Source: Candidatus Magasanikiibacteriota bacterium (GTDB lineage: Bacteria; Patescibacteriota; Patescibacteriia; Magasanikbacterales; GWA2-37-8). From it: DNA of 42,568 bases. A program made the position numbers and the translations under genes. The DNA lies in assembly GCA_036172155.1 (NCBI GenBank), contig JAVHSM010000033.1, positions 1-42,568 on the forward strand, read 5' to 3'. Below are positions 1 through 22,572 of the stretch, piece by piece. Position 1 is the stretch's first letter. The number at the start of each line of letters is the position of its first letter. The notes beneath the pieces were generated by a model. That model searched no databases. It was not told the origin of the DNA and was given only the letters and a program-made list of their open reading frames with translations.

Positions 1-52
1 ACCCACGCCTACTCTTTTGGAGAGAGCAGTACTACCATTATACTACGCCCCT
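1..52 (-). tRNA. tRNA-Trp(CCA), 5' part only (T-arm and 3' end lie outside the window)
   Basis: The reverse complement reads AGGGGCGTAGTATAATGGTAGTACTGCTCTCTCCAAAAGAGTAGGCGTGGGT. It has an acceptor 5' strand, a D-arm, and an anticodon stem GCTCT/AGAGT with loop CTCCAAA. The start (AGGGGCGUAG) and anticodon loop match E. coli tRNA-Trp. Confidence 0.75.
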
Positions 53-903: not shown

Positions 904-1056
904 TTATTTTGTTTCTTTGTGGGCGAAGTGCTTTTTGCAATTTTTGCAATGTTTCTTCAAGTCCAAACGCGTCTTGATTTTTTTGTTGCGAGTGGTAAAA
1001 TGATCCACTTGATTGCAATTGGTACACTCCAATTTTACTAATCTTTCTTGTGACAT
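904..1056 (-). CDS. rpmG: 50S ribosomal protein L33
   Basis: Absent from the ORF track because it is shorter than 60 aa. ATG at 1054-1056 (reverse complement) and TAA at 904-906. The translation is MSQERLVKLECTNCNQVDHFTTRNKKIKTRLDLKKHCKNCKKHFAHKETK, with the CxxC...CxxC zinc ribbon and KETK C-terminus typical of L33. Confidence 0.85.
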   Translation of the reverse strand: MSQERLVKLECTNCNQVDHFTTRNKKIKTRLDLKKHCKNCKKHFAHKETK

Positions 1057-1078: not shown

Positions 1079-1348
1079 TGGTGGGCAGAGAAGGATTCGA
1101 ACCTTCGAAGGCGGAGCCAACAGATTTCACTTATCCATAAGTTTCCTTACGGCATGGACTATATCTTTACCCTTTTACGGGTACTCTGGTATCTAGTCTC
1201 TACGGCGCTCCCCGAACATTTCGGAGTTCCCACGGTATTAGCACCCCCATTAGCTTTCACCGTTATCCCAGAGAGTTCATCCTAGGGTTTCCCCTAAGAG
1301 CTGCAATTGTTCACAGTCTGTCCCAGTTAACCACTTTGGTATCTGCCC
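1079..1348 (-). tRNA. tRNA-Tyr(GUA), type II with a long variable arm and encoded CCA, interrupted by a group I intron
   Basis: The 5' exon (1348->1313) is GGGCAGATACCAAAGTGGTTAACTGGGACAGACTGT. The 3' exon (1127->1079) is AAATCTGTTGGCTCCGCCTTCGAAGGTTCGAATCCTTCTCTGCCCACCA. Joined, they give an 85-nt tRNA with acceptor GGGCAGA/TCTGCCC, discriminator A, anticodon stem ACAGA/TCTGT and loop CTGTAAA. The segments CAGACUGUAAAUCUG and CUUCGAAGGUUCGAAUCCUUC are nearly identical to E. coli tRNA-Tyr. Confidence 0.8.
1128..1312 (-). ncRNA. group I self-splicing intron (IC3-like, no ORF) in the tRNA-Tyr anticodon loop after U35
   Basis: RNA-sense features: P1 pairs exon CUGU with intron GCAG (U.G at the splice site). 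P2 is CUUAGGG-GAAA-CCCUAGG. P3 is CUCUGG/CCAGAG. P4 is ACGGU/ACCGU. P7 is GACUA/UAGUC inside GUAGAGACUAGA, which I recall as identical to the Azoarcus tRNA-Ile intron. P8 is ACCC-GUAAAA-GGGU. P9 is CCAU...AUGG with a UAAGGAAAC motif. The last nucleotide is G (omega-G). Confidence 0.75.
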
Positions 1349-1356
1349 AATTTTTT

Positions 1357-1965
1357 TTATAAAGAACGAGCCAAATCACCACAAAAACACAAAATTTTCT
1401 CTAACAATTTTTTATCTCCGTAGCGAACATGGAGTAAACCATGCGGCATTGATCTTCTGCCTCGATTAACAGCTGGACGTACGTGCGGTTTTGTAAATTG
1501 CACTTTTTCAGCGTTTAATTGAAACGACCAATATTTTATAAGAGCATCGATATCTTGATCCTCAAAACAATATAGATAGAATCTAAGTTTATTTTCTTTC
1601 ACTCGACAGATTTTTCTCAAAAACTTTAAAAATAATTTTATCACCAATTCATCTGAATTGGCAAAATCTACCGTGACTCCTGTTTTTGCTCCCTCTCCGT
1701 AATATAACATAATAGCCGCTATCAAAAGTTCTCTATCCTTTACATTTAAACTCTCTTTAAAATTAAAGGATGGTTTTTTTCTATCGAACAAAATCTTATT
1801 TTGTTCTGATAAACTTTTGGTAGGAACATTTTGACGTCGTAACGAACTGTATATTTGTTTTAAAGATAGACCAGAAATAAACGAAATCTCTTTACCCATT
1901 TTTCCGACAAGATACAATTCTTTAACTAATCTTTCCTGTTCTTTAGTGATAGTTTTTTTTGGCAT
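1357..1965 (-). CDS. free-standing HTH plus LAGLIDADG-like protein (putative homing endonuclease or maturase relative)
   Basis: 202-aa ORF with an ATG start. The N-terminus has an HTH-like segment (GKMGKEISFISGLSLKQIYSSLRR). The central LIAAIMLYYGEGAK followed by VTVDFANSDELVIKLFLKFL fits the pattern of a LAGLIDADG helix, beta strands and a helix. The stop codon is 8 nt from the tRNA-Tyr 5' end. The family assignment rests on motif resemblance only. Confidence 0.45.
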   Translation of the reverse strand: MPKKTITKEQERLVKELYLVGKMGKEISFISGLSLKQIYSSLRRQNVPTKSLSEQNKILFDRKKPSFNFKESLNVKDRELLIAAIMLYYGEGAKTGVTVDFANSDELVIKLFLKFLRKICRVKENKLRFYLYCFEDQDIDALIKYWSFQLNAEKVQFTKPHVRPAVNRGRRSMPHGLLHVRYGDKKLLEKILCFCGDLARSL

Positions 1966-2026
1966 ATAATAACTGATAATGGTCAGTTACATTATACCAC
2001 GGAAATTTTAAAAGGACAAAATCTAG

Positions 2027-2099
2027 AGCCGACTTAGGGATTCGAACCCTAGACCTACGGTTTACAAAACCGTTGCTCTACCAACTGAGCTAAGTCGGC
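2027..2099 (-). tRNA. tRNA-Thr(UGU)
   Basis: The reverse complement is GCCGACTTAGCTCAGTTGGTAGAGCAACGGTTTTGTAAACCGTAGGTCTAGGGTTCGAATCCCTAAGTCGGCT. It forms a cloverleaf with acceptor GCCGACT/AGTCGGC, anticodon stem ACGGT/ACCGT and loop TTTGTAA. No CCA is encoded. Confidence 0.9.
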
Positions 2100-22381: not shown

Positions 22382-22537
22382 AATCTTTTAACAAAAAAAT
22401 CTGTGTTTCCACAGACAAATAATACGGTACAAATCGACTATTTTCCACTGTCATTCCCGCGAAAGCGGGAATCCAGTGTCAAATTTTGTACCTCGGCAGG
22501 TAATTAAGCCCCATAAGGGACGCCTGCTGTCTATGGT
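22382..22537 (-). promoter_or_regulatory. rplJ 5' leader (candidate L10-leader-type autoregulatory RNA) containing a palindromic repeat copy
   Basis: About 155 nt lie between the predicted promoter and the rplJ ATG. In RNA sense it has a GC-rich stem region (CAGCAGGCGUCCCUUAUGGGGCUUAAUUACCUGCCGAGG). I cannot verify a match to the Rfam L10 leader by eye. Confidence 0.3.
22450..22473. repeat. short palindromic repeat (GTCATTCCCGCGAAAGCGGGAATC)
   Basis: The stem CATTCCCGC/GCGGGAATC forms a perfect palindrome. The same termini are seen in the copies at 36999-37022, 26307-26340 and elsewhere. Confidence 0.85.
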
Positions 22538-22543
22538 GGCTAT

Positions 22544-22572
22544 ATATTAAACAATTGTTGGGGTTTTGTCAA
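22544..22572 (-). promoter_or_regulatory. sigma70-type promoter of rplJL
   Basis: On the minus strand, TTGACA (22567-22572) and TAATAT (22544-22549) are separated by a 17-nt spacer. Confidence 0.55.

What the first reader, a model, noticed from the sequence alone, without database searches (positions are those of the whole stretch)
1079..1348. tRNA-Tyr(GUA) split by an Azoarcus-like ORF-less group I intron after U35
Seen in sequence:
- The two flanks at 1313-1348 and 1079-1127 join into an 85-nt type II tRNA with acceptor GGGCAGA/TCTGCCC, discriminator A and loop CUGUAAA.
- The joined tRNA is almost superimposable on E. coli tRNA-Tyr around the anticodon and T arms.
- The 185 nt between the flanks carry a full small group I core: P1 CUGU.GCAG with a U.G pair, a P2 GAAA hairpin, P3, P4, P7 GACUA/UAGUC inside GUAGAGACUAGA, P8, P9 and a terminal G.

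Established knowledge: bacterial tRNA group I introns are classically known in tRNA-Leu(UAA), tRNA-fMet, tRNA-Ile(CAU) and tRNA-Arg(CCU).

Inference: I am not aware of a described tRNA-Tyr example. If this is the only tRNA-Tyr gene, the organism would depend on self-splicing for all Tyr decoding. The tRNA also sits immediately upstream of rpmG, so it is probably co-transcribed with a ribosomal protein gene.
Basis: partly seen in the sequence, partly recalled or inferred. Interest (0 to 1): 0.7.

Follow-up and report, generated by a model that had tools for sequence, protein, structure and literature searches.

The report
Self-splicing intron inside tyrosine tRNA gene
The tyrosine tRNA gene of this ultra-small (CPR/Patescibacteria) bacterium is interrupted in its anticodon by a 185-base group I intron of the self-splicing type, conserved at the same spot in at least 63 related species and usually flanked by a gene that looks like a mobile DNA-cutting enzyme.

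Summary
Bases 1348-1313 and 1127-1079 join into an 85-nt tRNA-Tyr(GUA). The 185 nt between them (1312-1128) reach the Rfam group I intron gathering score (53.3 bits, E 7e-11).

The same intron sits at the same site, after U35, in 63 GTDB species genomes, all apparently Patescibacteria. In 59 aligned sequences, 96% of the proposed pairs form and 46 of 71 pairs show compensatory changes. All tRNA stems are included, so the spliced tRNA is under selection.

This is a new member of a known kind: a small, ORF-less tRNA anticodon-loop group I intron in a host tRNA and at a position (35/36) absent from the reviews I could read.

ORF 1965-1357 encodes a helix-turn-helix domain plus an uncharacterised domain. 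In relatives the same slot is empty or holds PD-(D/E)XK, LAGLIDADG or HNH-like genes, so it is probably a hotspot for free-standing homing endonucleases. Self-splicing, sole-copy status and nuclease activity remain untested.

The parts
1313..1348 (-). tRNA-Tyr(GUA) 5' exon (36 nt), ending in anticodon-loop C32 U33 G34 U35. Its last four bases, CUGU (1316-1313), form the 5' strand of P1.
   Evidence: ARAGORN on the joined exons. The CTGT columns are invariant in 59 homologues.
1128..1312 (-). ORF-less group I intron, 185 nt. Helices in window coordinates (5' strand / 3' strand): P1 3' strand (guide sequence GCAG) 1304-1301; P2 1298-1292 / 1287-1281 with L2 GAAA 1291-1288; P3 1273-1268 / 1189-1184; P4 1263-1259 / 1236-1232; P5 1255-1253 / 1242-1240; P6 1230-1229 / 1205-1204; P6a 1226-1222 / 1214-1210; P7 1198-1194 / 1161-1157; P8 1182-1179 / 1172-1169; P9 1152-1146 / 1141-1135 with L9 GAAA 1145-1142; terminal G at 1128.
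   Evidence: RF00028 at 53.3 bits, E 7e-11. Helix map. Covariation in P2, P3, P4, P5, P6a, P8 and P9, with P1, P6 and P7 invariant. The MFE fold recovers all helices outside the pseudoknot. No same-strand ORF above 33 aa.
1079..1127 (-). tRNA-Tyr 3' exon (49 nt). It starts with A36 A37 and carries the 3' strand of the anticodon stem, the long variable arm, the T arm, the acceptor 3' strand, discriminator A and an encoded CCA (1081-1079).
   Evidence: ARAGORN. blastn against E. coli tRNA-Tyr. All tRNA stems are 99-100% paired with compensatory changes.
1357..1965 (-). ORF202: an N-terminal helix-turn-helix domain plus a conserved, uncharacterised C-terminal alpha/beta domain. Its stop codon lies 8 nt before the tRNA-Tyr 5' exon. 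It is a candidate free-standing homing endonuclease, or a derivative of one.
   Evidence: 343 homologues, and every source name among the 120 listed is a CPR/Patescibacteria lineage or unclassified. All 7 independent orthologue contexts abut an intron-split tRNA-Tyr. Relatives have the same slot empty or filled by PDDEXK_5, LAGLIDADG or HNH-like genes. It is a clean indel between close relatives. The HTH resembles that of phage endonuclease families. No Pfam or PDB match for the C-terminal domain.
1991..2019 (-). Promoter-like site (TTGTCC, 17-nt spacer, TG-TATAAT) between tRNA-Thr(UGU) and ORF202. It lies inside the inserted cassette.
   Evidence: Consensus scan only. The corresponding sequence is present in L004 and absent from the 29-nt empty spacer of L067.
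2026..2099 (-). tRNA-Thr(UGU), the upstream neighbour. In relatives that lack the ORF it lies 18-62 nt from tRNA-Tyr.
904..1056 (-). rpmG (ribosomal protein L33). It starts 22 nt after the tRNA-Tyr 3' end and is probably co-transcribed.
   Evidence: Pfam PF00471, E 4.5e-12. No terminator-like site on this strand.

Best explanation
**What it is.** Window 1348-1079 (minus strand) is a functional tRNA-Tyr(GUA) gene whose anticodon is split between U35 and A36 by a 185-nt ORF-less group I intron. The intron has the small, tRNA-type (IC3-like) architecture.

**How it is made (inferred).** The locus is probably transcribed as part of a tRNA-Thr / tRNA-Thr / ORF202 / tRNA-Tyr / rpmG unit.

**How it splices (inferred from the family mechanism).**
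- The intron folds into P1-P9, with the P3/P7 pseudoknot.
- The last four exon bases, CUGU, pair with the guide sequence GCAG, which puts a U.G wobble at the 5' splice site.
- An external guanosine attacks after U35.
- The terminal G at 1128 then occupies the G site, and the freed 3'-OH of U35 attacks the 3' splice site. This joins GU to A and recreates the GUA anticodon.
- The tRNA anticodon stem holds the two exons together.

**How it is inherited.** The intron is old and mostly co-inherited with its tRNA across Patescibacteria.

**The neighbouring gene (less certain, about 0.55).** ORF202, immediately upstream, is most likely a free-standing homing endonuclease gene or a derivative of one. 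It occupies a slot that different endonuclease families have invaded repeatedly. It may have helped spread this tRNA-Tyr allele, with or without the intron as its immunity determinant ('collaborative' or intronless homing).
For: **Identity of the locus (shown).**
- RF00028 scores above its gathering threshold.
- The joined exons are called tRNA-Tyr(gta) and are 84% identical to E. coli tRNA-Tyr across the junction.

**Conservation.**
- The pattern scan found the intron upstream of a GAAATC 3' flank in 63 GTDB species genomes.
- After removing the intron, 70 of 73 loci held (58 of the 63 GTDB loci) give a tRNA-Tyr(gta) call. The other three (L056, L060, L065) gave no call; two of them are cut by a contig end. 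Intron length ranges from 182 to 237 nt.

**Structure and selection.**
- 96.4% of pair cells form and 46 of 71 pairs have compensatory changes.
- The acceptor, D and anticodon stems are 100% paired; the variable-arm and T stems are 99.4-99.7% paired. All five carry many double changes.
- P2, P3, P8 and P9 covary strongly. The P1 pairs, the U.G pair and P7 are invariant.
- Slid controls give 35-48% paired.
- L9 is GAAA in 57 of 59 sequences and L2 is GNRA in 57 of 59.

**Inheritance.** Exon and intron divergence are correlated (Mantel r = 0.43, 0 of 2000 permutations reach it).

**Transcription context.** ORF202, the tRNA and rpmG are separated by 8 and 22 nt, with no terminator-like site on that strand.

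**ORF202 as a homing-endonuclease-like gene.**
- All 7 orthologue contexts fetched by protein precede an intron-split tRNA-Tyr.
- About 34 of the 63 intron loci carry it, ending -3 to +13 nt from exon 1.
- In other species the same slot holds:
  - a PDDEXK_5 endonuclease gene (E 2.5e-27);
  - an HTH plus LAGLIDADG gene (E 7e-14);
  - an HNH-like gene;
  - zinc-ribbon genes with a PD-(D/E)XK-like motif;
  - or nothing, in 10 species with an 18-62 nt spacer.
- L004 and L067 are close relatives that differ by a clean roughly 645-nt cassette, which carries its own promoter-like site.
- Paralogues sit just upstream of intact tRNA-Trp and tRNA-Thr genes.
- hhalign against the slot's LAGLIDADG protein gives E 4e-5. 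It aligns the HTH, and LIAAIMLYYGEGAK with LIGILLGDGNL.
Against: **On the intron.**
- Self-splicing has not been shown. No transcript or in vitro data could be examined.
- P1 is only 4 bp and P10 is weak, as in other tRNA introns where the anticodon stem substitutes.
- P1 and P7 never vary, so they give no covariation evidence either way.
- The genome outside this contig was not available, so a second, intact tRNA-Tyr cannot be excluded.

**On ORF202.**
- The C-terminal domain has no significant match to any solved nuclease fold. Best Foldseek values against the PDB are E 1e-2 and TM 0.35-0.39.
- It has no Pfam family, even in distant members.
- BFVD matches to phage endonuclease and LAGLIDADG models are weak (E at best 1.4e-3, TM at most 0.37).
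- hhalign probability is only 69%.
- The family is well conserved and mostly intact, which would also fit a domesticated host function.
- No CPR-specific set of intron-less tRNA-Tyr loci was obtained to test whether the ORF needs the intron.
Confidence: 0.88

Rival explanations
1. The intron is real, but splicing in vivo depends on a protein cofactor. ORF202, encoded 8 nt upstream and probably co-transcribed, would be a dedicated maturase or RNA chaperone for this intron rather than a DNA endonuclease.
For: - ORF202 orthologues abut the intron-bearing tRNA-Tyr in all 7 contexts fetched by protein.
- The family is well conserved, with 27 invariant columns, and is mostly intact. This fits a function selected by the host.
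- Established knowledge: LAGLIDADG proteins can act as group I intron maturases.
- The window's own P5 region is a shortened variant of the receptor-like motif seen in relatives.
Against: - At least 20 species carry the same intron with no ORF202 nearby. In 10 of them tRNA-Thr and tRNA-Tyr are only 18-62 nt apart.
- Paralogues sit upstream of intron-less tRNA-Trp and tRNA-Thr genes.
- The N-terminal domain is a DNA-binding-type HTH.
- In other species the slot holds bona fide DNA endonuclease families.
Confidence: 0.1
2. ORF202 is neither a nuclease nor a maturase. It would be a helix-turn-helix regulator, or another housekeeping or defence-related protein, that happens to be encoded next to tRNA genes in CPR genomes. 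The intron would then be purely vertically inherited and immobile.
For: - Only the HTH is recognisable.
- No nuclease fold or motif was detected by Pfam or by Foldseek against the PDB.
- Exon and intron distances are correlated, consistent with vertical co-inheritance.
- The family is very large: 3249 clusters at 50% identity.
Against: - Presence is sporadic among close relatives, with a precise cassette indel.
- Unrelated endonuclease genes replace it at the identical position.
- The HTH is of the type found in phage homing endonuclease families (phrog_7545, 8446, 7168).
- The weak fold matches and the hhalign alignment both point to LAGLIDADG-type endonucleases.
Confidence: 0.25
3. The locus is a decaying, non-functional tRNA-Tyr copy inactivated by an intron insertion. 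The working tRNA-Tyr would lie elsewhere in the genome.
For: Only 42.6 kb of the genome is available, so a second copy cannot be excluded. Standard tRNA finders do not call this gene.
Against: - Every tRNA stem is 99-100% paired across 59 species, maintained by many compensatory double substitutions.
- The splice-site bases, the guide sequence, P7 and the terminal G are invariant.
- The gene keeps its syntenic place between tRNA-Thr and rpmG.
- A study of complete CPR genomes needed the intron-containing tRNAs to account for all amino acids (PMC8172020).
Confidence: 0.02

Closest known systems
[quoted passage not shown]
   Same: - Both are small (205 nt versus 185 nt here) and ORF-less, and both are inserted in a tRNA anticodon loop.
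- Both have P1-P9 only, with no large peripheral domains.
- Both have a very short P1 with U.G at the splice site, and GNRA loops on P2 and P9.
- The anticodon stem holds the exons together in both.
- From my memory of the Azoarcus sequence, not tested here: the GUAGAGACUAGA stretch at P7 is shared.
   Different: - The host tRNA is Tyr rather than Ile.
- The position is inside the anticodon (35/36) rather than after it (36/37).
- The host phylum is Patescibacteria rather than Betaproteobacteria.
- J8/7 to P7 reads AAGAUAUAGUCC, the general Rfam consensus.
- Self-splicing has been shown for Azoarcus and not here.
[quoted passage not shown] 1990; Kuhsel et al. 1990; Paquin et al. 1997)
   Same: - Both are ancient and mostly vertically inherited.
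- Both are ORF-less and interrupt the anticodon itself after a U that forms the U.G pair.
- Both are conserved at one site across a whole phylum.
- Both show sporadic gain or loss.
   Different: - The insertion is between U34 and A35 of UAA, versus U35 and A36 of GUA here.
- The host lineage differs.
- No endonuclease-gene slot next to the tRNA-Leu gene is mentioned in the reviews I read.
Synechocystis PCC 6803 tRNA-fMet intron with I-Ssp6803I (a PD-(D/E)XK homing endonuclease specific for the tRNA-fMet anticodon region; Bonocora and Shub 2001, cited in PMC3984707)
   Same: - A tRNA anticodon-loop group I intron is associated with a homing endonuclease.
- Three relatives of this locus (L026, L040, L075) carry a PF11645 (PDDEXK_5) gene next to the tRNA-Tyr gene. 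From memory, PF11645 is the Pfam family of I-Ssp6803I.
   Different: - In Synechocystis the endonuclease gene lies inside the intron. Here the intron is ORF-less and the endonuclease-like genes are free-standing, just 5' of exon 1.
- The window itself has ORF202, not a PDDEXK_5 gene.
Collaborative (trans) homing: free-standing endonuclease plus ORF-less intron, for example F-CphI with cyanophage psbA and mobE with nrdB in phage Aeh1 (described in PMC3984707)
   Same: The geometry is the same. [quoted passage not shown] The ORF is sporadically present among relatives.
   Different: - The known cases are in phages and protein-coding genes. This one is in a cellular (CPR) genome and a tRNA gene.
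- The cleavage site and activity of ORF202 are unknown.
- Paralogues beside intron-less tRNA genes suggest the intron may not be required.
Phage T4 SegB (free-standing GIY-YIG homing endonuclease in the tRNA gene cluster; PMC2330249)
   Same: A free-standing endonuclease gene is embedded among tRNA genes and promotes inheritance of the tRNA region. The ORF202 paralogues upstream of tRNA-Trp and tRNA-Thr have the same layout.
   Different: The protein family and host differ, and activity has not been shown here.

Membership tests
Group I intron (Rfam RF00028) | Score at or above the curated gathering threshold of the covariance model | tested here: met
   53.3 bits against a threshold of 50, E 7e-11 for the window. 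Homologues score 38-57 bits, so many fall below the threshold.
Group I intron (Rfam RF00028) | P1 formed by the 5' exon end and an internal guide sequence, with a U.G wobble at the 5' splice site | tested here: met
   CUGU/GCAG with U36.G45 in pre-tRNA numbering. All four pairs are identical in 59 of 59 sequences. Because they are invariant, there is no covariation evidence.
Group I intron (Rfam RF00028) | Terminal G (omega-G) as the last intron base | tested here: met
   The G at window 1128 precedes AAATC and is an invariant column in 59 sequences. The scan pattern required this G, so its invariance in the set is partly by construction.
Group I intron (Rfam RF00028) | Conserved core of P3-P8 and P4-P6 domains with the P3/P7 pseudoknot, supported by covariation | tested here: met
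   - Pairs with compensatory changes: P3 4 of 6, P4 2 of 5, P5 2 of 3, P6a 4 of 5, P8 3 of 4, P9 6 of 7, P2 7 of 7.
- P6 and P7 are invariant.
- Overall 96.4% of cells are paired, against 35-48% in slid controls.
- Parts of P7 and J8/7 were fixed by the search pattern, so their invariance is partly by construction.
Group I intron (Rfam RF00028) | Guanosine-dependent self-splicing that yields ligated exons | not testable with these tools
   Needs an in vitro transcript with GTP and Mg2+, or junction-spanning RNA reads.
Subgroup IC3 (small tRNA-type group I introns such as Azoarcus and Anabaena) | Compact architecture without P2.1, P5abc, P7.1/7.2 or P9 extensions, with GNRA loops on P2 and P9 for tertiary docking and insertion in a tRNA anticodon loop | tested here: inconclusive
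   - The architecture matches.
- L9 is GAAA in 57 of 59 sequences and L2 is GNRA in 57 of 59.
- A strict 11-nt-receptor-like motif ([C/G]CUAAG ... UAUG[G/C]) occurs in only 17 of 59 sequences, and in a shortened form in the window.
- No subgroup-specific model or reference alignment was available, so the assignment rests on resemblance.
Bacterial tRNA-Tyr | GUA anticodon, class II long variable arm, A73 discriminator, cloverleaf with standard stems | tested here: met
   ARAGORN calls tRNA-Tyr(gta) for the window and for 70 of 73 loci. Identity to annotated E. coli tRNA-Tyr is 84%. All stems are 99-100% paired with compensatory changes.
LAGLIDADG homing endonuclease (for ORF202) | The alpha-beta-beta-alpha-beta-beta-alpha LAGLIDADG fold with the motif helix ending in a catalytic acidic residue, and a match to Pfam LAGLIDADG models | tested here: not met
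   - No Pfam LAGLIDADG hit in 35 members or in 10 distant relatives.
- High-confidence models (pLDDT 91) have the topology alpha-beta-alpha-beta-alpha-beta-beta-alpha and no significant PDB match.
- Only weak leads remain:
  - the MLYYGEGAK motif aligned to LIGILLGDGNL by hhalign (probability 69%, E 4e-5);
  - BFVD matches to phage LAGLIDADG and endonuclease models at E 1e-3 to 1e-2.
Free-standing homing endonuclease gene (functional class, for ORF202) | - Sporadic presence or absence at one precise intergenic site next to a conserved target.
- A DNA-binding module.
- Site-specific cleavage of the ORF-less allele. | tested here: inconclusive
   - Sporadic distribution and a clean cassette indel are shown.
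- The same slot is used by PDDEXK_5, LAGLIDADG and HNH-like genes.
- The HTH module is shown.
- Nuclease activity and the target site cannot be tested here.

The most novel reading that the evidence does not exclude
ORF202 would be the founding member of a large, unrecognised family of free-standing homing endonucleases with a new catalytic fold. The family has at least 3249 clusters at 50% identity, has no Pfam family and no solved-fold match, and sometimes occurs as a tandem double domain. Its members would insert immediately 5' of tRNA genes in CPR bacteria.

At tRNA-Tyr it would cooperate with the ORF-less anticodon intron. The intron would split the endonuclease's target and protect the carrier, so that gene, intron and tRNA allele spread together. 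That would be collaborative homing operating in cellular genomes on an essential tRNA. It would help explain why a phylum with minimal genomes keeps an intron in its tyrosine tRNA gene, which may be its only one.
Probability: 0.3. Interest if true: 0.75.

Novelty: new member of a known kind. Interest (0 to 1): 0.5.

Why it matters
**Annotation.**
- Standard tRNA finders miss this gene.
- The Rfam gathering score misses many of its homologues (38-57 bits).
- CPR genomes will therefore often appear to lack tRNA-Tyr, which biases completeness and 'missing tRNA' inferences.
- A covariance model built from the 59-sequence alignment would fix this.

**Biology.**
- If this is the sole tRNA-Tyr gene, all tyrosine decoding in these minimal-genome organisms depends on RNA self-splicing. 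That would make the ribozyme essential.
- It also extends the tRNA group I intron repertoire. The reviews I could read list only Leu, fMet, Ile and Arg hosts. This adds a new isoacceptor, a new position inside the anticodon (35/36) and a new phylum.

**Mobile-element evolution.**
- At least four endonuclease-type families, plus an uncharacterised one, occupy the 18-60 nt spacer 5' of the split tRNA gene in different species.
- This gives a natural system for studying turnover of homing endonuclease genes, and possible trans-homing, in cellular genomes.
- It also points to a large protein family with no assigned function.

Tried and rejected
- **ORF202 as a LAGLIDADG enzyme.**
  - The GEG motif suggested it.
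  - Pfam, PDB sequence profiles and Foldseek on both the full-length and the C-terminal models gave no support.
  - Only weak hhalign and BFVD leads remain.
- **A phage origin.** The intron pattern has 0 matches in IMG/VR viral contigs.
- **A control set of intron-less tRNA-Tyr loci.**
  - The metagenome scan returned 120 loci, and none has ORF202 in the Thr-Tyr slot.
  - Most are ordinary bacteria with the Thr-Tyr-Gly arrangement and a wide GC range. The comparison is therefore confounded by phylogeny and not decisive.
- **Remnants of ORF202 in intermediate-length spacers.**
  - No ORF202 remnant was found in the intermediate-length spacers. Only L062 gave an N-terminal HTH hit.
  - Six of the nine spacers examined (L026, L040, L075, L027, L033, L042) turned out to hold other endonuclease-type genes. 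L058 holds a 107-aa ORF with no Pfam hit, and L037 has no ORF.
- **The literature.**
  - The 2025 preprint on Patescibacteria tRNA introns is not held, and no published version or description was found.
  - A 2017 cyanobacterial 'group I intron' paper reports 22-49 nt inserts that cannot be group I introns and was disregarded.
- **ARAGORN's intron mode.** It labels the unspliced gene tRNA-Ser(tga) with a 185-nt intron at position 35. I rejected this because it ignores the group I splice-site rules.
- **Naming the source organism.** The Magasanikbacteria assignment rests only on the record titles of the nearest loci.
Full report
**1. The observation**

All features lie on the minus strand. Reading 1348 down to 1079 gives a 36-nt 5' exon, GGGCAGATACCAAAGTGGTTAACTGGGACAGACTGT. 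It is followed by 185 nt and then a 49-nt 3' exon, AAATCTGTTGGCTCCGCCTTCGAAGGTTCGAATCCTTCTCTGCCCACCA.

- ARAGORN calls the joined 85-mer tRNA-Tyr(gta) with a normal cloverleaf, a long variable arm, discriminator A and an encoded CCA.
- blastn of the joined sequence against 5,426 E. coli genomes hits annotated tRNA-Tyr genes at 84% identity over nt 25-85. That alignment runs straight across the proposed junction.
- The 185 nt reach the Rfam group I intron gathering score: RF00028, 53.3 bits against a threshold of 50, E 7e-11 for the whole 42.6-kb window.
- Default ARAGORN and the Rfam tRNA model do not see the gene. ARAGORN's intron mode miscalls it tRNA-Ser.
- No other tRNA-Tyr lies in the window.
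- The intron has no same-strand ORF above 33 aa.

**2. Anatomy**

Helices were mapped.

- P1 is CUGU (the last four exon bases) paired with GCAG, with U35 of the tRNA in a U.G wobble at the splice site.
- P2 has 7 bp and a GAAA loop.
- P3 is CUCUGG/CCAGAG.
- P4 is ACGGU/ACCGU.
- P5 is a short helix.
- P6 and P6a are present.
- P7 is GACUA/UAGUC, forming the pseudoknot with P3.
- P8 has 4 bp.
- P9 has 7 bp and a GAAA loop.
- The last intron base, at 1128, is G.

An unconstrained MFE fold of the intron alone recovers P2, P3, P4, P5, P6/P6a, P8 and P9 exactly (-56.2 kcal/mol, z = -2.4). P10 is at best 2-3 bp. This matches the tRNA introns described in the literature, where the anticodon stem holds the exons together (Zaug et al. 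1993, cited in PMC3984707).

**3. Relatives**

Proteins of the window have homologues only in CPR/Patescibacteria metagenome-assembled genomes. The nearest loci carry Magasanikbacteria titles.

A pattern built from the intron core plus the first exon-2 bases (GAGACTAGA...AAGATATAGTCC...GAAATC) matched 63 of the 185,579 GTDB species genomes.

- Record titles name Magasanik-, Moran-, Yanofsky-, Doudna-, Peri-/Peregrini-, Lipton- and Lloydbacteria, among others.
- The pattern fixes 27 bases, so 63 is a lower bound.
- It has no match in IMG/VR viral contigs.

After removing the insert at the same position, 70 of 73 loci held gave an ARAGORN tRNA-Tyr(gta). The three exceptions (L056, L060, L065) gave no Tyr call; two of them are cut by a contig end. 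Intron length is 182-237 nt.

**4. Covariation**

I aligned 59 distinct pre-tRNAs and scored my structure on the alignment.

| Measure | Result |
|---|---|
| Pair cells forming standard pairs | 96.4% |
| Pairs with changes on both sides | 46 of 71 |
| Cells with changes on both sides | 663 (178 expected from shuffles) |
| Slid-register controls | 35-48% paired |
| Shuffles reaching the observed values | 0 of 500 |

- P2 (7 of 7 pairs), P3 (4 of 6), P6a, P8 (3 of 4) and P9 (6 of 7) covary.
- P1, P6 and P7 are invariant, so they say nothing either way. P7 and J8/7 were partly fixed by the search pattern.
- Every tRNA stem (acceptor, D, anticodon, variable, T) is 99-100% paired, with numerous compensatory double changes. 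The spliced product is therefore under selection as a tRNA, which rules out a decaying copy.
- L9 is GAAA in 57 of 59 sequences and L2 is GNRA in 57 of 59.
- A strict 11-nt-receptor-like motif in P5 occurs in 17 of 59 sequences. The window has a shortened variant.
- Exon and intron divergences are correlated (Mantel r = 0.43, 0 of 2000 permutations reach it). The intron has therefore mostly travelled with its tRNA.

**5. Mechanism**

This section is inferred from the established group I pathway.

- An external guanosine attacks after U35 at the U.G pair of P1.
- The terminal G then replaces it in the P7 G site.
- The 3'-OH of U35 attacks the 3' splice site, joining ...CUGU to AAAUC... and restoring the GUA anticodon.
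- The splice site falls between anticodon positions 35 and 36. From my own knowledge, the tRNA-Leu(UAA) intron lies at 34/35 and the Ile and Arg introns at 36/37, each after a U.
- In GUA, U35 is the only U within the anticodon.

The context is compact. ORF202 stops 8 nt before exon 1, and rpmG starts 22 nt after the CCA. Promoter-like sites lie upstream of tRNA-Thr(GGU) and upstream of ORF202. No terminator-like site lies on this strand. Co-transcription is plausible but rests only on consensus scans.

**6. The neighbouring gene**

ORF 1965-1357 (202 aa) lies between tRNA-Thr(UGU) and tRNA-Tyr.

*Family.*
- It has 343 homologues, and every source name among the 120 listed is a CPR/Patescibacteria lineage or unclassified.
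- Its N-terminal 60 residues are a helix-turn-helix. They resemble HTH_23 and resolvase-type domains and the DNA-binding modules of phage HNH and homing endonuclease PHROGs.
- The C-terminal 135 residues are strongly conserved, with invariant G90, G92, K94, D100, N103, H179 and R181 and nearly invariant E91, D105 and D184.
- They match no Pfam, NCBIfam or PDB sequence family.
- AlphaFold models are confident: pLDDT 91.7 for the full length and 91.4 with pTM 0.85 for the domain.
- Foldseek finds no significant solved structure. The best match is E 1e-2 with TM 0.35-0.39.
- BFVD gives only weak matches to phage endonuclease and LAGLIDADG models (E at best 1.4e-3).
- A profile search of 1.84 billion representatives finds 3249 clusters at E <= 1e-3. 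Some contain two copies of the domain, and none of ten sampled has a Pfam hit outside the HTH.

*Position.*
- All seven orthologue contexts fetched by protein, at 45-100% identity, precede an intron-split tRNA-Tyr.

| Thr-Tyr slot in the 63 GTDB loci | Species |
|---|---|
| ORF202-family gene ending -3 to +13 nt from exon 1 (includes one frameshifted and one truncated copy) | about 34 |
| PF11645 PDDEXK_5 endonuclease gene (E 2.5e-27) | 3 |
| HTH plus double LAGLIDADG gene (PF14528, E 7e-14) | 1 |
| HNH-like gene | 1 |
| Zinc-ribbon protein with a PD-(D/E)XK-like C-terminus | 2 |
| No ORF; tRNA-Thr and tRNA-Tyr only 18-62 nt apart | 10 |

- L004 and L067 are close relatives. L067 has a 29-nt spacer whose two halves match the two ends of L004's 673-nt spacer. 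The ORF, with its promoter-like site, is therefore a clean cassette indel.
- More distant paralogues (26-36% identity) sit immediately upstream of intact tRNA-Trp, tRNA-Thr(UGU) or tRNA-Thr(GGU) genes.
- hhalign of the family against the L062 LAGLIDADG protein gives E 4e-5 at 69% probability. It aligns the HTH, and LIAAIMLYYGEGAK with LIGILLGDGNL.

*Reading.*
- The slot is a hotspot for free-standing homing endonuclease genes, and ORF202 is most likely one of them or a derivative (probability about 0.55).
- Its fold does not pass a LAGLIDADG membership test.
- I could not decide whether the intron serves as its immunity determinant (collaborative homing, PMC3984707) or is irrelevant (intronless homing, as for T4 SegB in a tRNA cluster, PMC2330249).
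- The metagenome control set of 120 intron-less tRNA-Tyr loci has no ORF in the slot, but it is mostly non-CPR.

**7. Comparison with the literature**

- Reviews from 2014 list bacterial tRNA group I introns only in tRNA-Leu, fMet, Ile and Arg, from cyanobacteria and alpha- and beta-proteobacteria (PMC3984707, PMC4033280).
- The tRNAscan-SE 2.0 paper adds fMet and Ile2 cases only (PMC8450103).
- Lui et al. [quoted passage not shown] They do not name the tRNAs (PMC8172020), and their supplements hold nothing on it.
[quoted passage not shown] It may already cover this intron.
- I found no accessible description of a tRNA-Tyr group I intron or of the flanking endonuclease slot.

**8. Verdict**

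- It is a new member of a known kind: a tRNA anticodon-loop group I intron with a new host tRNA, insertion position and phylum.
- It is widespread and ancient in Patescibacteria, and practically important because annotation pipelines miss it.
- The less expected element is the endonuclease-gene slot and the large uncharacterised ORF202 family.
- Not shown: self-splicing, sole-copy status, and any nuclease activity.

Noticed in passing
window 1357-1965 (-): A 202-aa ORF ends 8 nt before the tRNA-Tyr 5' exon. It has an N-terminal helix-turn-helix and a conserved C-terminal domain with no Pfam family and no solved-fold match (pLDDT 91). The domain family has at least 3249 clusters at 50% identity, and some members carry two copies.
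   Followed up: yes
L040 (upstream of 2690), L075, L026; L062; L042; L027, L033: In other species the spacer between tRNA-Thr(UGU) and the intron-split tRNA-Tyr holds unrelated endonuclease-type genes. These are PDDEXK_5 (PF11645, E 2.5e-27), HTH plus LAGLIDADG (PF14528, E 7e-14), HNH-like, and zinc-ribbon plus PD-(D/E)XK-like. In 10 species the slot is empty, with an 18-62 nt spacer.
   Followed up: partly
L014 2475-2852, L043 6220-6687, L050 7460-7822, L067 4649-4957, L068 906-1403, L073 5486-5890 and 6491-6985: Distant paralogues of ORF202 (26-36% identity) lie immediately upstream of intact, intron-less tRNA-Trp(CCA), tRNA-Thr(UGU) or tRNA-Thr(GGU) genes in the same orientation. The family therefore tracks the 5' flanks of tRNA genes, not only the intron.
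   Followed up: partly
L006 4913-5190 (GCA_007376295.1, Parcubacteria Gr01-1014_13): A second split tRNA in a relative. tRNA-Thr(GGU) is interrupted after GGT by about 203 nt, and the joined exons are nearly identical to the window's intact tRNA-Thr at 2112-2185. RF00028 scores only 14.8 bits (E 0.18), so this is either a divergent group I intron or another kind of insert.
   Followed up: partly
L014 3620-3825, L006 4636-4836, L068 2845-3064 and others: Clear homologues of the tRNA-Tyr intron score below the RF00028 gathering threshold (38.4, 47.0 and 49.1 bits). Routine Rfam annotation will therefore miss many of them, and those genomes will appear to lack tRNA-Tyr.
   Followed up: partly
L004 spacer (673 nt) versus L067 spacer (29 nt): These close relatives differ by a precise cassette of about 645 nt, made of a promoter-like site plus ORF202. 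The two halves of the empty 29-nt spacer match the two ends of the filled spacer.
   Followed up: partly
window 1079-1081 versus L008, L006, L011 and others: The 3' CCA is encoded in the window's tRNA-Tyr and in some relatives but not in many others (the sequence ends ...CCCAC followed by other bases). CCA addition must therefore be enzymatic in part of the clade.
   Followed up: no
window 1-52 (-): A tRNA is truncated by the contig end (Rfam tRNA, 33.5 bits). By synteny with L004 and L008 it is probably tRNA-Trp(CCA), following the DUF1189 gene.
   Followed up: no
window 22385-22554 (-): A ribosomal protein L10 leader (RF00557, 56.8 bits). This is an ordinary feature of the rplJL region.
   Followed up: no
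L013, about 89 nt upstream of tRNA-Tyr exon 1: A 79-aa ORF whose sequence looks like a small GIY-YIG (URI-type) nuclease lies just upstream of the tRNA-Thr/tRNA-Tyr pair. The motif was read by eye and not scanned.
   Followed up: no
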